A program made the position numbers and the translations under genes. Of a DNA stretch of 5,089 nucleotides, positions 1 to 5,019 are shown piece by piece. The notes below the pieces were generated by a model. That model was not told the origin of the DNA. It worked only from the letters and a program-made list of their open reading frames with translations, and ran no database searches. Position 1 is the stretch's first letter. The number at the start of each line of letters is the position of its first letter. Origin of the DNA: Candidatus Vampirococcus lugosii (GTDB lineage: Bacteria; Patescibacteriota; Gracilibacteria; Absconditabacterales; Absconditicoccaceae). The stretch is from contig NZ_JAEDAM010000073.1 in NCBI RefSeq assembly GCF_018420025.1, positions 1 through 5,089 on the forward strand, read 5' to 3'.

Positions 1-2004
1 TCAATCTCATAAATCCCAATTTACACTCTGTATATCTTTAGGATTAATTCATTGTATTTCAGTATTTAAATCAATTTTTTCTCATGACGAAATGTTATTT
101 TTATTGACTTTCAAATTAGTTCAATGAAAAGAATTATTGTTATTATTGTTATTGTTATTATTGTTATTATTGTTATTGTTATTATTGTTGTTGTTATTAT
201 TGTTGTTATTGTTATTATTGTTGTTATTGTTATTATTGTTGTTATTATTGTTGTTGTTATTATTGTTGTTGTTATTATTGTTGTTATTGTTATTATTGTT
301 GTTATTGTTATTATTGTTGTTATTGTTATTATTGTTGTTATTGTTATTATTGTTGTTATTGTTGTTAATAGATATATTATTATATGATTCTCATATTTTA
401 TTTCAATTTTTATCATAAGATGAAACTTTTAATTTATGATTTCAATCTCTAATTGGACCAAAATTTTTATTAAAATCAAAAACAATTCTTCAATTTGGAT
501 TACTTATATTAGTTTTATATTCATTTCAATCTATTTCCCATATCAAATAATTAGTATTACTAGATCAATTGTAAACACATCTTAATTTTTCATCAATTTC
601 CAAAACTAATTTTTCACATCTAAATTTAATATTATTTCAATTATTTTTATTTTCCTCAAAAACTCTAACCAAAAAATTAGATGAAACATATTTTCAATTT
701 GACATTTTTCATCTTGCTACAACATTATATACTCATTTATTTCTATAAATATGAGATGTATTTGGTCAGTTTCAATAATTACCATCACCAAAATCCCATT
801 CTATAGATTCAAAATTTCAAATTGAATGAGAATCAAAATTAACTTCCAAAGGAGCAAATCATTTTTGATTATCAGTAAAAATATTTAATCAATATATTTT
901 TTCATTATTATCACAAATTTTTGGATCTTGTTTAGGATTATAAACTAAAGGACATATACTATCTGATTCTCTTAATTTTTTAATATTTATATTTCATTTA
1001 TCATCTACAACTCATATACTATTTTTAATTCAATCTCAACTAATATCATCATCACAGACATCACCAAATCAATCTCAATCTATATTATTTTGATTTGGAT
1101 TATAATCATATGGACAATTATCCAAATGATTTTTAACTCAATCTCATGAATAATCATAATCAAATTCACAAGAATTAATTTCAAATAATTTACTTATTTG
1201 TTCCAAAATTTGTTTTCAAGTAGGAAATCAATCCAATGAAAATTCAATAACTTCATCATAAGAAAATATTCAATGTTTTCTCAAAACATTCATTTCTCAA
1301 ACAGGCCGAACTCATTCACCATATTCAAATCAAGAAAATCAACATTCATCAAGATTAAATGTACAATATTTTATATAAGTTAAAAAAGTTTCATTAGTTT
1401 CAGCATTACAATTTCAATGTCAACATCTTTCAAATTCATTATTAATATTTTTTCTATCTTCAATAGATAAAGAATTATATTCAACTGTTCAATTTTGTAA
1501 AGAATCCATCCAAGATTTAATATTTGACCAATTTATTGAATATTCATTATAAACTTTTTTGGATGTAATATTAAATAATGATTGTACAAATTCAGAATTA
1601 GTAATATTATTATATCAACAGAATTTTCATGGACACAAAGGACTTGTATTAGCTGGATAACCATTTATATAATTATTAAATCAAGCATAAGCAATACACC
1701 AATAATTTTCACTTCAATACTCTATATCAGCAAAATTTTTATTTAATTTAGAAGAGAATTCATCAAACCGATTTTTATTTAAAGTTTCAACTATATCAGA
1801 TGGCGGAGTTTTGCAATCATTACAATCAGCAAAATTTAATAATTTAACAAATTCAAAACGACTAACAGTATTTTTATCAAATAAATTATTATAATCATAA
1901 CCTATATTATTTATTTTTTCATAAAAATTTGAATAAATATTTCAAATGAATACAAAAAATAATAATGATATTACAAAAAAAAACTTAATAATGTAATTAT
2001 ACAT
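1..2004 (-). CDS. Large secreted/cell-surface multidomain protein, 3'-partial (continues past left edge): N-terminal signal/anchor, SLH-like segment, thrombospondin type-3-like Ca-binding repeats, PKD domains, poly-Asn linker
   Basis: With TGA=Gly, the minus strand is one unbroken frame from the ATG at 2004-2002 to position 1. An in-frame TAA lies just upstream at 2011-2013. It contains about 43 in-frame TGA and no TAA/TAG. The N-terminus MYNYIIKFFFVISLLFFVFIGNIYSNFY is a hydrophobic signal/anchor. An SLH-like pattern lies at ~1567-1740: NFADIEYGSENYWCIAYAGFNNYINGYP...FCGYNNITNSEFVQSLF. TSP3-like repeats lie at ~901-1170: DYDYSGDGVKNHLDNCPYDYNPNQNNIDGDGFGDVCDDDISGDGIKN...CPLVYNPKQDPKICD. A PKD domain lies at ~650-890: KGFAPLEVNFDSHSIGNFESIEWDFGDGNYGNGPNTSHIYRNKGVYNVVARG. 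A further beta-sandwich-like segment lies at ~367-630, followed by N78 (133-366). A second PKD hallmark, SVNWDLGDG, sits at 1-27. Confidence 0.85.
133..366 (-). repeat. Imperfect trinucleotide minisatellite (ATT/GTT on +, AAT/AAC on -), in frame within the surface-protein CDS and encoding 78 consecutive Asn
   Basis: Every + strand triplet from 133 to 366 is either att or gtt. In the CDS frame each one reads AAT or AAC. A higher-order 18-bp unit, attattgttgttattgtt, recurs about 5 times in tandem across ~277-366, with 15- and 21-bp variants further left. The flanking codons are unique sequence: ...SYNNISI-N78-SFHGTNLK... Confidence 0.95.
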
Positions 2005-2044
2005 ATTTTCTTAATTTTTAATATAAAAAACATATTTATATTAA

Positions 2045-2073
2045 ATAATATAGTTTTTTACTCATTTTGTCAA
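2045..2073 (-). promoter_or_regulatory. Candidate sigma70-type promoter for the surface-protein gene
   Basis: On the minus strand there is a perfect TTGACA (2073-2068), a 17-nt spacer, then TATTAT (2050-2045). This sits about 40 nt upstream of the ATG at 2004. A -10-like hexamer is not informative in DNA this AT-rich. The G/C-containing perfect -35 at canonical spacing is the only real support. Confidence 0.3.
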
Positions 2074-2230
2074 ATCAAAATATTTTTTATTTAAAAAATA
2101 GTTCTTTTAAATAAAATATAAAGCACTAGTTTCAAATTTATAAAATAACACTAAATATATATCTATTATTAGATAATAGATTATATTTATCAATCTTCAA
2201 GAAATAATTTTTTAATATTTTATTTATTTT

Positions 2231-2785
2231 TTAGTTTTTTCATCGAATCCATACTGGTGGGAAATTTGAAATAACTCTTTCTTTCAATTCTAATCACATA
2301 TTTTTATAAACTTTTTTGAAAATAAAAGGCATATATGTAATTGTTCTATATACACTCCCCCATTGAGAATCTGCTTTTAATATATTATTTACAAGTTTTG
2401 TTCTATTTTTTTCAGGAAGTATAGGAAGAGAAGAGATTATAATATCTAATTTAGGAAATTCATATTTTGATAATATATCAAACATATTTTCAGCAGTATT
2501 CTTTTCTACAAAAATATTTGAATAGCTTGAATATCTATTAAATAACATATCAACATAAGAATTTTCTAATTCTACAAGTATTAATTTACTATCAGTTTTC
2601 ATATTTTTTATAATTTCTTGAGTAATAACTCATGTTCAAGGTCATAATTCCATAATATAATTTATATTATCAAAATCTATTCAATTAATAAGTTTTTTTG
2701 ATAAAGTGTTGGAACTAGGAACTAAAGATGCATTTCTTGACGGGTTTTTAAAAAAATTTTTTGCAAACAGAATATTATCTTTCAT
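2231..2785 (-). CDS. Class I SAM-dependent methyltransferase (RrnaAD/COG3963-like small methyltransferase), 184 aa
   Basis: The ATG is at 2785-2783 and the TAA at 2233-2231. The translation begins MKDNILFAKNFFKNPSRNASLVPSSNTLSKKLINGIDFDNINYIMELGPGTGVITQEIIKNMKTDSKLILVELE... and ends ...SSLPILP...NMGLELKERVISNFPPVWIRGKN. SAM-binding motif I, ELGPGTG (2630-2650), has all three glycines written as TGA. The N-terminal (S/A)xVPSS and C-terminal NxPP(A/V)xV motifs are typical of this family. The track ORF 2294-2602 is the internal piece bounded by TGA codons. Confidence 0.8.
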
Positions 2786-2904
2786 CAGAATAATTATTTT
2801 TTGTATATAAAATCAATTTATTATCAAAAAAATATAATCTTTTGAATTATAAATTTAGATAAGATATAATTATTTTAAATAATATTTCAACAAAAAAATA
2901 TAAA

Positions 2905-4552
2905 TTAATTTATAATTCAATCTACAAAAAATCATCAATTATAATTATCTTTTTTAATTTTTCATACTAATTTTGTTGGATTTCTTAATTCTACTAATCA
3001 CAAATCTTCTCACTTTCACCAAAACATAACTGGAAAAGTATTTCATTCCAAACTTGCATATGCTTTCAAATGTCATTTTCATTTTTTACCTACTTTTTCT
3101 ACATCATTAAATATTATATTTTCCATCAAAAAAACTGGTTCACGATTTCATTCTCAAAATGGTGCAAGTTCATTAATTTTAAGTATTTTTTCTTTTTCTA
3201 ATTCATGAGGATATATTTTAGTATCTATTTGTATAGATTTTATCAAATCTTTTTCTGTAATATTATTTTCTCAATATTCATAAAACAATTCAATAACAGT
3301 AGATAAATTTGAGATTTTGACTGTCATTCATCAAGCTTGTTTATGTCATCAATATCTTTCCATATATTTTCATGCATAATTTAACATATCTATTACCGAA
3401 AAATATTCAGGTCAACGAAGTGATGCAACTGCAAATCATTCTTTTTCTTTTATAGATATTATAACTGAAGGTTTATTATATTTTTCTGTAAGTCTTCAAG
3501 CTGTGATACCAACAATTCATTCATGAATATTATTTGATTGTGCTATCAAAACTTTTTTTGGATTTATCTATAATTTTATCTATTTCTTTATATCAATCAT
3601 CTTGAGATTTTTTTCTATCATTATTTATTTTTTCTATATTTTCCAAATGTTTTTTTTGTTTATCTCATGAATATATAAGACAATTTAAACTATCATAAGG
3701 ACTTTGCATTCTTCATCAAGCATTTATTCTGGGTGCAATCATAAATCATATATGAAATGTTTCTATATTATTTTTTATATTCAAAAAACTCAAAAAATTA
3801 CTAATTGATTTTGGAATTAATTTTTTAGTATTTATATAATCTATTCACATTTTTGTCATTAATCTATTTTCTCACAATAGAGGTACACAATCAGCAACGG
3901 TTCATATTGCTACAATTGGCAACAAATAATTTAATGCAATTTTTTTTCTATTAATATCTTTTATATAAATTTTGATTAATGCACTAGCAATTTTGAAAGC
4001 AACTCATACTCAAGCAATTCATTTAAAAGAATAATTTGGACTAATTTGTGGATTTACTACTGCTAAAGTTTTGGGAATTTGATCAAGTGCTTTATGATGA
4101 TCAGTTATTATTAAATCAAGTCATATTTTACTTGCATATTCAGCTTCTTTTATACAAGTAATTCAATTATCTACAGTAATTACCAAATCTGCTCATACAG
4201 ATTTTATTTCATCCAAATGATGTTTTTTCATTCAATATCAATCTGTAAGTCTATTTGGAAGTCTTATTGATATTTTTTTATAATTCAAAAAAATTGTAAA
4301 AAATTTATATAACAAAAAACTTGATGTAATTCAATCTACATCATAATCTCATAAAATCACTATTTTTTCATTATTTTTAATAGCTTTTTGTATTCTATGT
4401 ATTGCTATTTCAAAATCGTTTAATAAATATGGATCTATCCATGAATTTGTAAATGTTGGATTAAGAAAATCATCAATACTTCAATCAATTTTTCTTATTT
4501 TAAGTAATCTTTGTAATAAATCTTCATTTGGATTGTCATATATAATATCCAT
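2905..4552 (-). CDS. recJ: Single-stranded-DNA-specific exonuclease RecJ (DHH/DHHA1 family), interrupted by a 1-nt frameshift in an A7 homopolymer (T7 on +, 3553-3559)
   Basis: The ATG at 4552-4550 is the first start after an in-frame TAG at 4592-4594. The TAA is at 2907-2905. Canonical RecJ motifs appear in order, with TGA at the invariant Gly positions. These are VILGDYDVDGITS (GDYDVDG = 4331-4351), RLTDGYGM, LVITVDNGIT, LIITDHH (DHH = 4094-4102), FKGIAGVGVAFK, IGTVADCVPLLGENR and IAPRINAGGRM. After the frameshift come NIHEGIVGITAGRL, SLRGPEYF, YGGHKQAGGMT (GGH = 3343-3351) and LAPFGEGNREPVFL. The span is 1648 nt (3n+1). The unshifted frame hits TAA at 3530-3532. Confidence 0.9.
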
Positions 4553-4605
4553 AAATAATCTTAATATTATGATAAAATAATAATTTTGTTTCTAATCTTC
4601 TGCAC

Positions 4606-4941
4606 CTAAATTAAAGAAAAAAGTGAATTTTGTTGATTCTGTAGGTAATTTCTTTGATTTCTATTTCGGAAAAATTTTCAATTATGTAATATATATTCAA
4701 CTACTTCTAACCAGGCATACATATAATAATTATTTAGTCTTTCAACTTCACTTCTTAAATGTATTTTCTCTAAATTGTTTGTAAAAAACATTCTTTGTCA
4801 TTTATTATTTTTTATCACCACCAAATAATATTTTCTCTTAGAGTTTGAATTAAATATCTTTACCATTCAATAGTAAAGTTTTCCTCTAATTTTCTTGCCT
4901 CCTTTCAGACTTATCTCTACCTCCTTTTTCAAGCTTCTCAA
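4606..4941 (-). CDS. Small basic hypothetical protein with an Sm/LSm-like N-terminal motif; start codon uncertain
   Basis: With TGA=Gly, the frame is open from 4980 to the TAG at 4608-4606. The in-frame start candidates are TTG at 4941 (111 aa) or ATG at 4866 (86 aa). The sequence is (L/M)RSLKKEVEISLKGGKKIRGKLYYGMVKIFNSNSKRKYYLVVIKNNKGQRMFFTNNLEKIHLRSEVERLNNYYMYAWLEVVEYILHNGKFFRNRNQRNYLQNQQNSLFSLI. The segment RSLxKxVxxxLKGGxxxRGxL resembles the first half of the Sm1 motif of archaeal and bacterial Sm-like proteins. That similarity favours the longer model. The later Sm residues (DxxMN) are not evident. Confidence 0.45.
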
Positions 4942-4997
4942 ATATACTATTTTGCCTCATTTTCATAATATTTTTTTCTTTTACAAAATCAACATCT

Positions 4998-5019
4998 TTT
5001 TCTCGCCCGGGCGGGAAAA
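4998..5019. other. GC-rich inverted repeat / potential stem-loop with a perfect 10-bp core palindrome CGCCCGGGCG
   Basis: The sequence is tttt-ct-cgccc|gggcg-gg-aaaa. The arms 4998-5008 and 5009-5019 are complementary except for one T/G position (5003/5014). The core 5004-5013 is 100% G+C in a window that otherwise has almost no G/C runs. It lies between a possible upstream-gene stop (5069-5071) and the small ORF. Confidence 0.6.

What the first reader, a model, noticed from the sequence alone, without database searches (positions are those of the whole stretch)
133..366. 78-residue uninterrupted poly-asparagine tract inside a bacterial surface protein, encoded by an AAT/AAC minisatellite
The 234-bp att/gtt tract is not intergenic. 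It lies exactly in frame within the surface-protein CDS, between two beta-sandwich/PKD-like modules, and encodes N78 with no other residue. Homopolymeric Asn runs this long are typical of AT-rich eukaryotes (Plasmodium, Dictyostelium) and of prion-like domains, and are very unusual in bacteria. Mixing the two synonymous codons in an 18-bp higher-order unit, rather than a pure (AAT)n, suggests unit-wise expansion with partial stabilisation against slippage. Any gain or loss of 3n-bp units keeps the frame. The tract could therefore act as a variable-length flexible stalk or spacer for the distal adhesin domains, or as an aggregation-prone low-complexity region.
Basis: partly seen in the sequence, partly recalled or inferred. 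Interest (0 to 1): 0.7.

Follow-up and report, generated by a model that had tools for sequence, protein, structure and literature searches.

The report
Poly-asparagine linker in predator surface protein
A 78-residue run of pure asparagine is encoded in frame at a domain junction of a cell-surface protein of the tiny predatory bacterium Vampirococcus lugosii; it is a rare, lineage-specific linker expansion, not a new kind of system, and its exact length is unverified.

Summary
Window 133-366 (minus strand) is 78 consecutive Asn codons, 39 AAC and 39 AAT. They lie in frame in a 670-codon open frame that is only open if UGA is read as Gly (code 25).

The window is a whole 5089-bp contig of Candidatus Vampirococcus lugosii (Absconditabacteria). 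The host gene encodes an N-terminally anchored surface protein with thrombospondin type-3 repeats and PKD/Ig-like domains.

With the tract removed, the protein is collinear with 75 homologues. None of them has an Asn run of 5 or more. The closest relative has a 6-residue linker (VDDDQQ) exactly where N78 sits, between beta-sandwich 2 and 3. So the tract is a recent expansion of an inter-domain linker.

It has a 6-codon (18-bp) higher-order period (0 of 2000 shuffles). AAC makes up 50% of tract codons against 2% elsewhere in the gene (P=1e-13).

Long poly-Asn is rare in prokaryotes but not unique. A capped scan of 185,579 species genomes gave 28 in-frame mixed-codon tracts of 30-81 Asn. Every host with a Pfam match was extracytoplasmic.

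The exact length is unverified: 2x125-bp reads, amplified DNA, internal repeats up to 77 bp, and two homopolymer discrepancies against an independent assembly. A spacer function is inferred, not shown.

The parts
133..366 (-). Poly-Asn tract: 78 codons (39 AAC, 39 AAT). It is built from a 6-codon unit, AAC-AAC-AAT-AAT-AAC-AAT, with 5-codon variants and a degenerate promoter-distal end.
   Evidence: lag-6 match 0.72, reached by 0 of 2000 shuffles; longest same-codon run 3, P=0.002; AAC inside vs outside the tract, Fisher P=1e-13.
1..2004 (-). Surface-protein gene, truncated by the contig end. ATG at 2002-2004. Hydrophobic N-terminal anchor or signal (residues 5-22), Cys-rich helical domain, TSP type-3 repeats, then PKD/Ig-like beta-sandwiches.
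   Evidence: TSP_3 33.1 bits vs cut-off 25; PKD_4 37 bits vs 27; homologues to E=7.7e-109; tandem Ig-like folds. The anchor is read directly from the sequence; no predictor was run.
1090..1170 (-). Best-scoring thrombospondin type-3 repeat stretch (residues 279-305). These are D-rich motifs such as DGDGFGDVCDDDISGDG.
   Evidence: The invariant D/N/C columns in the family alignment fall here.
718..852 (-). PKD domain core (residues 385-429), beta-sandwich 1, with the WDFGDG motif.
367..642 (-). Beta-sandwich 2 (about residues 455-546). Its last strand (...GESYNNISI) ends at the tract.
   Evidence: (maps to P0004 strands 470-547, pLDDT about 85-92).
1..132 (-). Start of beta-sandwich 3 (SFHGTNLKV...NWDLGDG). 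The contig ends inside the conserved WDxGDG motif.
   Evidence: PKD_4, E=0.026, partial; best match to the next domain of P0001, score 56 vs shuffle mean 26, sd 4.8.
2045..2073 (-). Promoter-like site, TTGACA-17-TATTAT (11 of 12), about 40 bp upstream of the ATG.
   Evidence: The total number of such sites does not exceed chance in this AT-rich DNA, so this is weak evidence.

Best explanation
The tract is a genuine in-frame coding minisatellite. It has expanded the short polar linker between the second and third Ig-like (PKD-type) beta-sandwich of a membrane-anchored surface protein. The organism is the epibiotic predator Candidatus Vampirococcus lugosii, which reads UGA as Gly.

Shown:
- It is coding and in frame.
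- The flanks are collinear with the protein family.
- The insertion point is a domain junction.
- It is absent from all 75 homologues examined.
- It has a 6-codon periodic architecture and a strongly atypical codon mix.

Inferred:
- It arose by tandem duplication (replication slippage or unequal recombination) of a 15/18-bp unit that already mixed AAC and AAT. It can still change length in 5-6 residue steps without breaking the frame.
- The product is a polar, uncharged, disordered segment of about 78 residues. Its contour length is roughly 28 nm. As a random coil it would span about 9 nm end to end, and less if collapsed.
- Physically it acts as a tolerated flexible spacer between the membrane-proximal part (anchor, TSP3, PKD1-2) and the distal domains. 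This resembles low-complexity stalks in other bacterial surface proteins.
- Because it is lineage-specific, it is probably dispensable for the family's core function.
For: - In frame, code 25.
- Host protein domains.
- Source organism: (RecJ fragment P0058 is 100% identical and lies on a 5089-bp V. lugosii contig).
- Collinearity once the tract is deleted: score 799 against P0004; P0173 reads ESQVNISV-VDDDQQ-DGYGSELSV; the window reads ESYNNISI-[N78]-SFHGTNLKV.
- Junction between beta-sandwiches.
- The C-terminal 44 residues match the next domain, so no domain was replaced.
- Unique in the family: (0 of 75 members have an Asn run of 5 or more).
- Not a general feature of relatives: about 60 kb from four related code-25 genomes (GC 23-29%) has no AAY run longer than 5.
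- Unit-wise architecture.
- Codon mix 50% AAC against 2% in the rest of the gene.
- Same kind of context elsewhere: mixed-codon poly-Asn tracts in other prokaryotes lie in frame in PBP1 tails, NlpC/P60 linkers, FN3-SLH proteins and He_PIG/Ig giants, or directly after signal peptides.
- A chimeric junction is excluded, because both flanks continue the same protein in order and in frame.
- The 670-codon frame has no TAA or TAG in 79% A+T DNA.
- The paper describes a fibrous cell surface and large surface proteins with PKD and other interaction domains (PMC8080830).
Against: - No reads were available. The genome came from roughly 10-cell consortia amplified by MDA or MALBAC, sequenced 2x125 bp and assembled with SPAdes 3.6 defaults (PMC8080830).
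- The tract is longer than a read. It has internal exact repeats up to 77 bp and 73 positions with non-unique 55-mers.
- An independent Logan assembly of run SRR13241709 differs from this contig at two homopolymers and stops 255 bp short of the tract. Slippage-type errors or heterogeneity therefore exist in this contig, and the number 78 may be wrong.
- The gene is truncated 132 bp past the tract, so the distal domains are unknown.
- No orthologue closer than about 47% identity was found, so length variation could not be examined.
- A spacer function is a physical inference. The tract could equally be neutral.
Confidence: 0.8

Rival explanations
1. The tract exists but its length or internal order is an artefact. 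A shorter or differently sized natural poly-Asn linker was mis-sized by de Bruijn graph repeat resolution, or was expanded or contracted by polymerase slippage during whole-genome amplification.
For: - Reads were 125 bp against a 234-bp tract, and the DNA was amplified by MDA or MALBAC.
- Internal repeats of 77, 71, 59 and 56 bp exist, and 55-mers are non-unique at 73 positions.
- All repeat offsets are multiples of 3, so a mis-sized tract would still be in frame.
- Two homopolymer-length discrepancies occur in 4 kb against an independent assembly of the same material.
- The tract lies 132 bp from a contig end.
- Several tracts in the genome scan sit at contig termini (L089, L110, L141, L142, L150).
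Against: - All 99-mers are unique, and only two 77-mer positions repeat. The longest perfectly periodic block is 95 bp, shorter than a read. So 125-bp reads can in principle resolve the path.
- The interrupted pattern, with 5- and 6-codon unit variants and a degenerate end, looks like evolutionary history rather than in-vitro stutter of a pure repeat.
Confidence: 0.35
2. The tract is neutral junk. It is a slippage product of an extremely AT-rich, reduced genome, tolerated because it sits in a linker, with no contribution to function. This is the 'good for nothing' view of Plasmodium Asn repeats.
For: - GC is 21% and Asn is already 14.7% of the protein.
- The tract is lineage-specific and absent from 75 homologues.
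- In P. falciparum, deleting the Asn repeat of Rpn6 gave no phenotype (PMC3749963).
- The insertion lies exactly where a linker tolerates it.
Against: - AT pressure alone predicts (AAT)n. Here half the codons are AAC, in a genome where AAC is about 4% of Asn codons (P=1e-13 to 3e-16).
- About 60 kb of related, equally AT-rich genomes shows no AAY run longer than 5.
- Neutrality and a physical spacer effect are not mutually exclusive.
Confidence: 0.4
3. The tract is a functional self-associating element: a polar zipper, or an amyloid or prion-like segment. It would promote lateral association of surface proteins (the fibrous coat) or adhesion to prey.
For: - Long Asn repeats aggregate strongly. 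An 83-residue Plasmodium Asn repeat aggregates in mammalian cells (PMC3749963).
- The V. lugosii surface is described as conspicuously fibrous (PMC8080830).
- The protein is extracytoplasmic, beyond the reach of cytosolic chaperones (inference).
Against:
- It is absent from all homologues, including those of other code-25 relatives.
- Asn-rich LCRs are generally disfavoured in prokaryotes (PMC6821194).
- Only one such tract was seen, in one protein.
Confidence: 0.08
4. The tract is a contingency locus: a phase-variable simple-sequence repeat that switches the surface protein on and off.
For: It is a long, slippage-prone tandem repeat inside a surface-protein gene.
Against: Every repeat unit and every internal repeat offset is a multiple of 3 (3, 15, 18, 24, 36, 54, 60, 78, 96, 114, 132 bp). 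Slippage therefore changes length, not frame. The tract is far from the promoter.
Confidence: 0.03

Closest known systems
Plasmodium falciparum poly-asparagine repeats (e.g. the 83-residue repeat of PF3D7_0923500)
   Same: Uninterrupted Asn homopolymers of similar length in an extremely AT-rich genome. They are thought to spread by slippage or unequal crossover, their function is largely unknown, and they are prone to aggregate (PMC3749963; PMC13438671 abstract).
   Different: - Plasmodium is a eukaryote, and a quarter of its proteome is affected. Here there is one tract in one bacterial protein, and none in about 60 kb of related genomes.
- Plasmodium repeats are predominantly AAT. Here the mix is 50% AAC, arranged in an 18-bp unit.
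- The host protein here is extracytoplasmic.
Staphylococcal Clf/Sdr/Fbl R-domain (Ser-Asp repeat stalk)
   Same: A low-complexity stalk in a bacterial surface adhesin, encoded by tandem 18-bp units that differ mostly by synonymous changes. Copy number varies between strains (9-52 in Fbl) in frame-preserving steps. It acts as a flexible stalk projecting the binding domain (PMC6533592).
   Different: - The staphylococcal repeat is a dipeptide or hexapeptide (SD, SDSDSA), not a homopolymer. It is charged and gets glycosylated.
- It lies between the ligand-binding domain and an LPXTG wall anchor in Gram-positives.
- It is conserved across a family. The N78 tract is a singleton in its family, and no strain variation is known.
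In-frame mixed-codon poly-Asn tracts in other prokaryotic extracytoplasmic proteins
   Same: Runs of 30-81 Asn encoded by mixed AAT/AAC, often with 2- to 12-codon periodicity. They sit at linkers or tails of secreted or surface proteins. Examples: PBP1 after PASTA (L115 N81, L146), NlpC/P60 (L097, L171), FN3-SLH (L131, a Paenibacillus phytorum isolate), He_PIG/SH3 giants (L098, L127), and directly after a signal peptide (L096, L159, L199).
   Different: - The host proteins and phyla are unrelated, so these are independent origins.
- The window tract is second-longest in this class and has the largest codon-usage contrast with its gene (0.50 vs 0.02).
- No paper describing this class was found in the searches run.
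Yeast and Dictyostelium N/Q-rich prion-like domains
   Same: Extreme Asn richness over more than 60 residues; expected to be disordered and amyloid-prone.
   Different: Those are cytosolic regulatory proteins with mixed N/Q/S/G/Y composition. Self-propagation here is untested.

Membership tests
Homopeptide (single-amino-acid repeat) coding tract | Uninterrupted run of one residue, in frame within a protein-coding gene | tested here: met
   N78 with no other residue. Both flanks are homologous to one protein family.
Homopeptide (single-amino-acid repeat) coding tract | Encoded by tandemly repeated DNA, indicating a slippage or duplication origin | tested here: met
   TRF period 18, score 319. 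Lag-6 codon periodicity reached by 0 of 2000 shuffles. Exact internal repeats up to 77 bp.
TSP3-repeat / PKD-domain surface protein family of CPR bacteria (P0001-P0015, P0172 onward) | TSP_3 and PKD Pfam domains above their gathering scores | tested here: met
   TSP_3 33.1 bits vs 25; PKD_4 37 vs 27; PKD 25.6 vs 23.5.
TSP3-repeat / PKD-domain surface protein family of CPR bacteria (P0001-P0015, P0172 onward) | Full-length collinear homology, including the conserved Cys/Asp columns | tested here: met
   E=7.7e-109 with 99% coverage to P0001. Invariant C64, C103, D284... columns. 47% identity to P0173.
TSP3-repeat / PKD-domain surface protein family of CPR bacteria (P0001-P0015, P0172 onward) | Complete C-terminal region (second TSP3 block and CxxCPC tail) | not testable with these tools
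   The contig ends 132 bp past the tract, and no overlapping contig was recovered.
Staphylococcal SD-repeat stalk (Clf/Sdr R-domain) | 18-bp DNA unit with synonymous variants | tested here: met
   Unit AAC-AAC-AAT-AAT-AAC-AAT. This is an analogy only.
Staphylococcal SD-repeat stalk (Clf/Sdr R-domain) | Ser-Asp dipeptide composition and position next to an LPXTG wall anchor | tested here: not met
   The tract is pure Asn. It sits between two Ig-like domains, and the anchor is N-terminal.
Staphylococcal SD-repeat stalk (Clf/Sdr R-domain) | Copy-number polymorphism between strains that affects display of the binding domain | not testable with these tools
   No second strain or reads were available. 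The independent Logan contig stops 255 bp short of the tract.
Phase-variable contingency locus (simple-sequence repeat) | Repeat-number change shifts the reading frame or alters promoter spacing | tested here: not met
   All units and repeat offsets are multiples of 3, and the tract is internal to the CDS.
Prion-like / amyloid-forming N-rich domain | N/Q-rich, low-complexity segment of at least about 60 residues | tested here: met
   78 of 78 residues are Asn. No dedicated predictor was run.
Prion-like / amyloid-forming N-rich domain | Demonstrated self-templating aggregation | not testable with these tools
   This needs an experiment.
Genetic code 25 (SR1/Gracilibacteria, UGA=Gly) organism | In-frame TGA at conserved Gly positions | tested here: met
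   TGA falls at G in ELGPGTG, GDYDVDGITS, GGH and DGDG, where standard-code or correctly translated homologues (P0004, P0012) have Gly. RecJ is 100% identical to Ca. Vampirococcus lugosii and 68% to Ca. Absconditicoccus praedator.

The most novel reading that the evidence does not exclude
Mixed-codon, higher-order-unit poly-Asn tracts may be a recurrent, selected class of length-tunable extracytoplasmic spacer or self-associating element in bacteria. Under this reading, the V. lugosii tract tunes the reach or lateral packing of a prey-contact surface protein, and its 50:50 AAC/AAT architecture is maintained to damp 3-bp slippage. The evidence does not exclude this. The tract's codon mix is far from the genomic bias. 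Every other mixed-codon tract whose host had a Pfam match sits in a surface or secreted protein. In AT-rich hosts those tracts are also AAC-enriched (L115, L097, L147, L119).
Probability: 0.12. Interest if true: 0.6.

Novelty: new member of a known kind. Interest (0 to 1): 0.35.

Why it matters
The tract documents one of the longest uninterrupted poly-Asn runs seen in a bacterial open reading frame. It lies in a surface protein of one of the few CPR bacteria whose predatory lifestyle has been observed, and the genome paper does not mention it.

If the length is real and variable, the tract would be a ready strain marker. It would also offer a natural experiment on how a long polar homopolymer is tolerated outside the cytoplasm.

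The survey done here suggests a practical rule. Coding poly-Asn tracts in prokaryotes are mixed-codon and sit in linkers of extracytoplasmic proteins. Pure (AAT)n or (AAC)n tracts are mostly non-coding or come from suspect MAG contigs.

The finding also shows why code-25 genomes must be translated correctly. Many homologues in public protein sets carry Trp where Gly is meant.

Tried and rejected
- Recovering the source contig or closer orthologues by exact protein look-up failed.
- The metagenome scan gave nothing closer than 32-33% identity.
I predicted homologue P0004 instead and mapped the junction onto it.
- MAFFT first spread N78 over a whole homologue domain, which suggested a domain replacement. 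I rejected this after pairwise tests.
- Synteny with the best homologue (L200) and with Absconditicoccus praedator (L203) was absent. L202 ends at recJ.
- My first impression was that tract codon usage universally regresses to 50:50. That came from filtering on mixed tracts. The unfiltered test over 38 ORF-embedded tracts gave 23 closer to 0.5, with 7 significantly towards and 7 significantly away. It is a property of one class, not a rule.
- No tRNA or Rfam family lies in the window. The tract mRNA is unstructured, with MFE 0.
- The plus-strand poly-Leu and poly-Ile/Val ORFs are antisense by-products.
- The independent Logan contig (L204) stops 255 bp short of the tract, so it does not test the tract.
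- Searches for bacterial poly-Asn linkers returned no paper that appeared to address them.
Full report
**Observation.** The window is 21% G+C. Under the standard bacterial code its genes are shattered. If TGA is read as sense, four minus-strand genes appear. TGA falls at canonical Gly positions: ELGPGTG in a methyltransferase; GDYDVDGITS, DHH and GGH in RecJ; and DGDG in thrombospondin-type repeats. So the code is 25, UGA=Gly.

In that reading, window 133-366 is exactly 78 consecutive Asn codons, 39 AAC and 39 AAT. They lie in frame in an open frame running from 2010 to the left end of the window. TRF finds periods 9, 15 and 18, and period 18 scores best.

**Source.** A repaired RecJ query returned P0058. 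It is 100% identical over 340 residues, sits on a contig of exactly 5089 bp, and is annotated Candidatus Vampirococcus lugosii. The next best hits are 71% (an unnamed NCBI assembly) and 68% (Ca. Absconditicoccus praedator).

The window is therefore a complete contig of the V. lugosii assembly. V. lugosii is an epibiotic predator of Chromatiaceae. Its genome was obtained from about 10-cell consortia by MDA or MALBAC amplification, HiSeq 2x125 bp reads and SPAdes 3.6 defaults, and annotated with table 25 (PMC8080830). The paper stresses giant surface proteins with PKD and other interaction domains and a fibrous surface. It never mentions asparagine or low complexity.

**The host protein.** The protein starts at the ATG at 2002-2004. 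It has these parts, in order:
- a hydrophobic N-terminal segment (residues 5-22, read directly from the sequence);
- a Cys-rich helical region;
- thrombospondin type-3 repeats (33.1 bits vs cut-off 25);
- a PKD domain (37 bits vs 27).

Fifteen homologues of 730-950 residues were found (best E=7.7e-109). A profile search of 1.84 billion representatives added 60 family-size members. Many of them are mistranslated in public sets, with Trp where Gly is meant.

An AlphaFold2 model of the correctly translated homologue P0004 has mean pLDDT 79, and 85-93 in the relevant region. It shows four consecutive beta-sandwiches at about 389-460, 470-547, 552-635 and 643-730. Foldseek matches it to strings of Ig/FN3 domains. 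The top hit, the Aureispira grappling-hook protein, is only a generic tandem-Ig resemblance with low TM-scores.

**Where the tract sits.** With the tract deleted, the window protein aligns collinearly with P0004 (score 799). The insertion point I546|S547 maps to P0004 545|546. That is the end of the last strand of sandwich 2, just before the 4-residue linker to sandwich 3.

The 44 residues after the tract match the immediately following domain of P0001 best (score 56 vs shuffle mean 26, sd 4.8). So no domain was replaced, contrary to what a first MAFFT alignment suggested.

In the closest relative, P0173 (47% identity after W/G normalisation), the junction reads ESQVNISV-VDDDQQ-DGYGSELSV. The window reads ESYNNISI-[N78]-SFHGTNLKV. 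The tract therefore occupies the position of a short polar inter-domain linker.

None of the 75 family members has an Asn run of 5 or more. About 60 kb from four related code-25 genomes (GC 23-29%) has no AAY run longer than 5. The tract is a lineage-specific, presumably recent, expansion. No homologue shows a gene boundary at this position.

**DNA architecture.** In the coding direction, with C for AAC and T for AAT, the codon string is CCT(CCTTCT)x4 CCTTC CCTTC CCTT (CCTTCT)x2 CCTTC CCTTCT, then a degenerate tail. The statistics are:
- Lag-6 self-match is 0.72, reached by 0 of 2000 shuffles.
- The longest same-codon run is 3, against a random expectation of 6.3 (P=0.002).
- AAC is 50% of tract codons, against 2 of 87 Asn codons elsewhere in the gene and 6 of 152 in the window (Fisher P=1e-13 and 3e-16).

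Simple AT-driven (AAT)n slippage does not explain this. Amplification of a mixed 15/18-bp unit does. The mixing removes 3-bp slippage substrates. However, the tract still has a 95-bp block of perfect 18-bp periodicity and exact repeats of 77, 71, 59 and 56 bp. It therefore remains a minisatellite that can change in 5-6 residue steps. The mRNA is completely unstructured (MFE 0).

**How unusual is it?** A survey of more than 1500 prokaryotic proteomes found Asn heavily under-represented in LCRs (PMC6821194). I scanned one genome for each of 185,579 prokaryotic species for 30 or more consecutive AAY codons. Two classes separate:
- Pure (AAT)n or (AAC)n tracts: 90 in total, of which only 10 lie in ORFs with at least 250 flanking residues. 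Many come from a few suspect MAGs or are Flavobacteriia (GTT)n microsatellites.
- Mixed-codon tracts: 46 in total, of which 28 lie in long ORFs, drawn from many phyla.

Ten of the mixed-tract host ORFs were scanned against Pfam, and nine had matches, all to extracytoplasmic proteins. These include class A PBPs (L115 with N81 after PASTA; L146), NlpC/P60 hydrolases (L097, L171), an FN3-SLH protein of a cultured Paenibacillus (L131) and He_PIG/Ig/SH3 giants (L098, L127). Further tracts lie directly after signal peptides.

Many of these tracts also show multi-codon periodicity. In AT-rich hosts they are AAC-enriched relative to the rest of the gene. An unfiltered test shows this is a property of the mixed class, not a universal rule.

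So the V. lugosii tract is rare and near the top of the length range. It belongs to a recurring, undescribed-looking pattern: poly-Asn linkers in bacterial surface proteins.

**Reliability.** A chimera is excluded, because both flanks continue one protein in order and in frame. The exact length is not secured, for these reasons:
- Reads (125 bp) are shorter than the tract.
- From my knowledge of SPAdes defaults, the largest k for such reads is 55. At k=55, 73 positions in the tract are non-unique. Two positions are non-unique at k=77 and none at k=99, so 125-bp reads can in principle resolve the path.
- All repeat offsets are multiples of 3, so being in frame is no evidence of correct length.
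- An independent Logan assembly of run SRR13241709 (L204) matches window 621-4619 with no mismatches but two single-base gaps. Both are in A/T homopolymers.

One of those gaps (T7 vs T6 at 3553-3559) is what splits recJ in the deposited contig. The Logan version encodes an intact 548-residue RecJ. Slippage-type errors or heterogeneity therefore exist in this contig. L204 stops 255 bp before the tract and cannot test it.

**Mechanism and verdict.** Most likely (confidence 0.8), this is a real in-frame expansion of an inter-domain linker, created by tandem duplication of a mixed-codon 15/18-bp unit. It would give a disordered polar segment of about 78 residues that acts physically as a flexible spacer between the proximal and distal parts of a surface protein. 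The contour and coil estimates (about 28 nm and 9 nm) come from polymer arithmetic, not measurement.

Whether the tract is selected or merely tolerated cannot be decided here. Neutral tolerance and a spacer effect are compatible. A self-associating polar-zipper role is possible but untested. On/off phase variation is excluded by the 3n architecture.

The closest functional analogue is the staphylococcal Clf/Fbl R-domain. It is a stalk encoded by variable numbers of 18-bp units with synonymous variation (PMC6533592). The closest compositional analogue is the Plasmodium Asn repeat (PMC3749963).

This is a new member of a known kind (homopeptide or low-complexity linkers in surface proteins). It is a noteworthy curiosity, not a new system.

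Noticed in passing
window 3553-3559 (recJ, 2905-4552, minus strand): recJ is split into two overlapping ORFs by a T7 (A7 on the coding strand) homopolymer, and NCBI annotates only the 340-residue N-terminal piece (P0058). Deleting one T gives a 551-codon open frame. An independent Logan assembly of run SRR13241709 has T6 and an intact 548-residue RecJ (P0318), so this is an assembly or amplification error or heterogeneity, not a pseudogene.
   Followed up: yes
window about 2222-2227 (intergenic, just after the methyltransferase stop): This is the second single-base homopolymer discrepancy (A6 vs A5) between the deposited contig and the Logan contig L204. The two contigs show no substitutions over 3999 aligned bases.
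   Followed up: partly
P0001-P0011 and many of P0172-P0317; L200:10001-12751: Public protein predictions for homologues from UGA-recoded CPR genomes are translated with Trp at UGA (e.g. DWDWVWDVCD instead of DGDGVGDVCD). P0001 has 73 in-frame TGA codons. This corrupts the Gly-rich Ca-binding and PKD motifs and lowers apparent identity (39% becomes 45% for P0001 after W/G normalisation).
   Followed up: partly
PMC8080830 Supplementary Fig. 6 (not in the window): The V. lugosii ATP synthase c-subunit is shown as LAIWLSWLWVWIWQGR, with W where the other species have the GxGxGxG glycines. The alignment used to infer H+ vs Na+ dependence therefore appears to use a UGA=Trp translation.
   Followed up: no
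window 5002-5015: A G+C-rich palindrome, CTCGCCCGGGCGGG (13 of 14 bases G/C), sits in a 21% G+C contig. It is flanked by a T-run and an A-run, upstream of the 4609-4980 minus-strand ORF. No tRNA or Rfam match; function unknown.
   Followed up: no
window 4609-4980 (minus strand): A 124-codon open frame (code 25), Lys/Gly-rich at its N-terminus, has no Pfam match apart from a faint LSM hit (E=0.074). Its start codon is unclear.
   Followed up: no
window 1-20: The contig ends exactly inside the conserved WDxGDG motif of the next PKD-like module. Similarity between paralogous PKD modules, rather than the tract, may have broken the assembly here.
   Followed up: no
P0173 (about residues 455-560 and 848-955): The closest relative carries an almost exact internal duplication of the sandwich-2/sandwich-3 block (ISLQAKCDPLSG.TPQEFNCTVDYQWDVD...), which explains its extra 170 or so residues. 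So module duplication also occurs in this family.
   Followed up: partly
L084, L087, L090, L091, L101, L109, L116, L117, L121 and others (MAG 'Metamycoplasmataceae isolate ce316e97'); L100, L111, L124, L134, L140, L144, L156, L179 (MAG 'Ekhidna isolate 7926a775'): A few MAGs contribute dozens of contigs with pure (AAT)n or (AAC)n tracts of up to 237 units at 34-48% G+C. This looks like eukaryotic contamination or mis-binning rather than bacterial sequence.
   Followed up: no
L082, L113, L132, L138, L145, L161, L189, L194: Cultured Flavobacteriia (several Flavobacterium species, Postechiella, Maribacter, Lacinutrix, Algibacter) carry pure (AAC)n = (GTT)n microsatellites of 33-47 units. Most lie outside long ORFs, but two are in frame in long ORFs (L161, L189). 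This is a lineage-specific microsatellite habit.
   Followed up: no
L096:2529-3974 (minus strand), L159:3978-5414 (minus strand), L199:5113-6609 (minus strand): Three Planctomycetota MAG proteins (two clearly homologous, the third with similar flanks) each have N30-N34 directly after the signal peptide. The tract may therefore be conserved across species in that family, unlike the singleton here.
   Followed up: no
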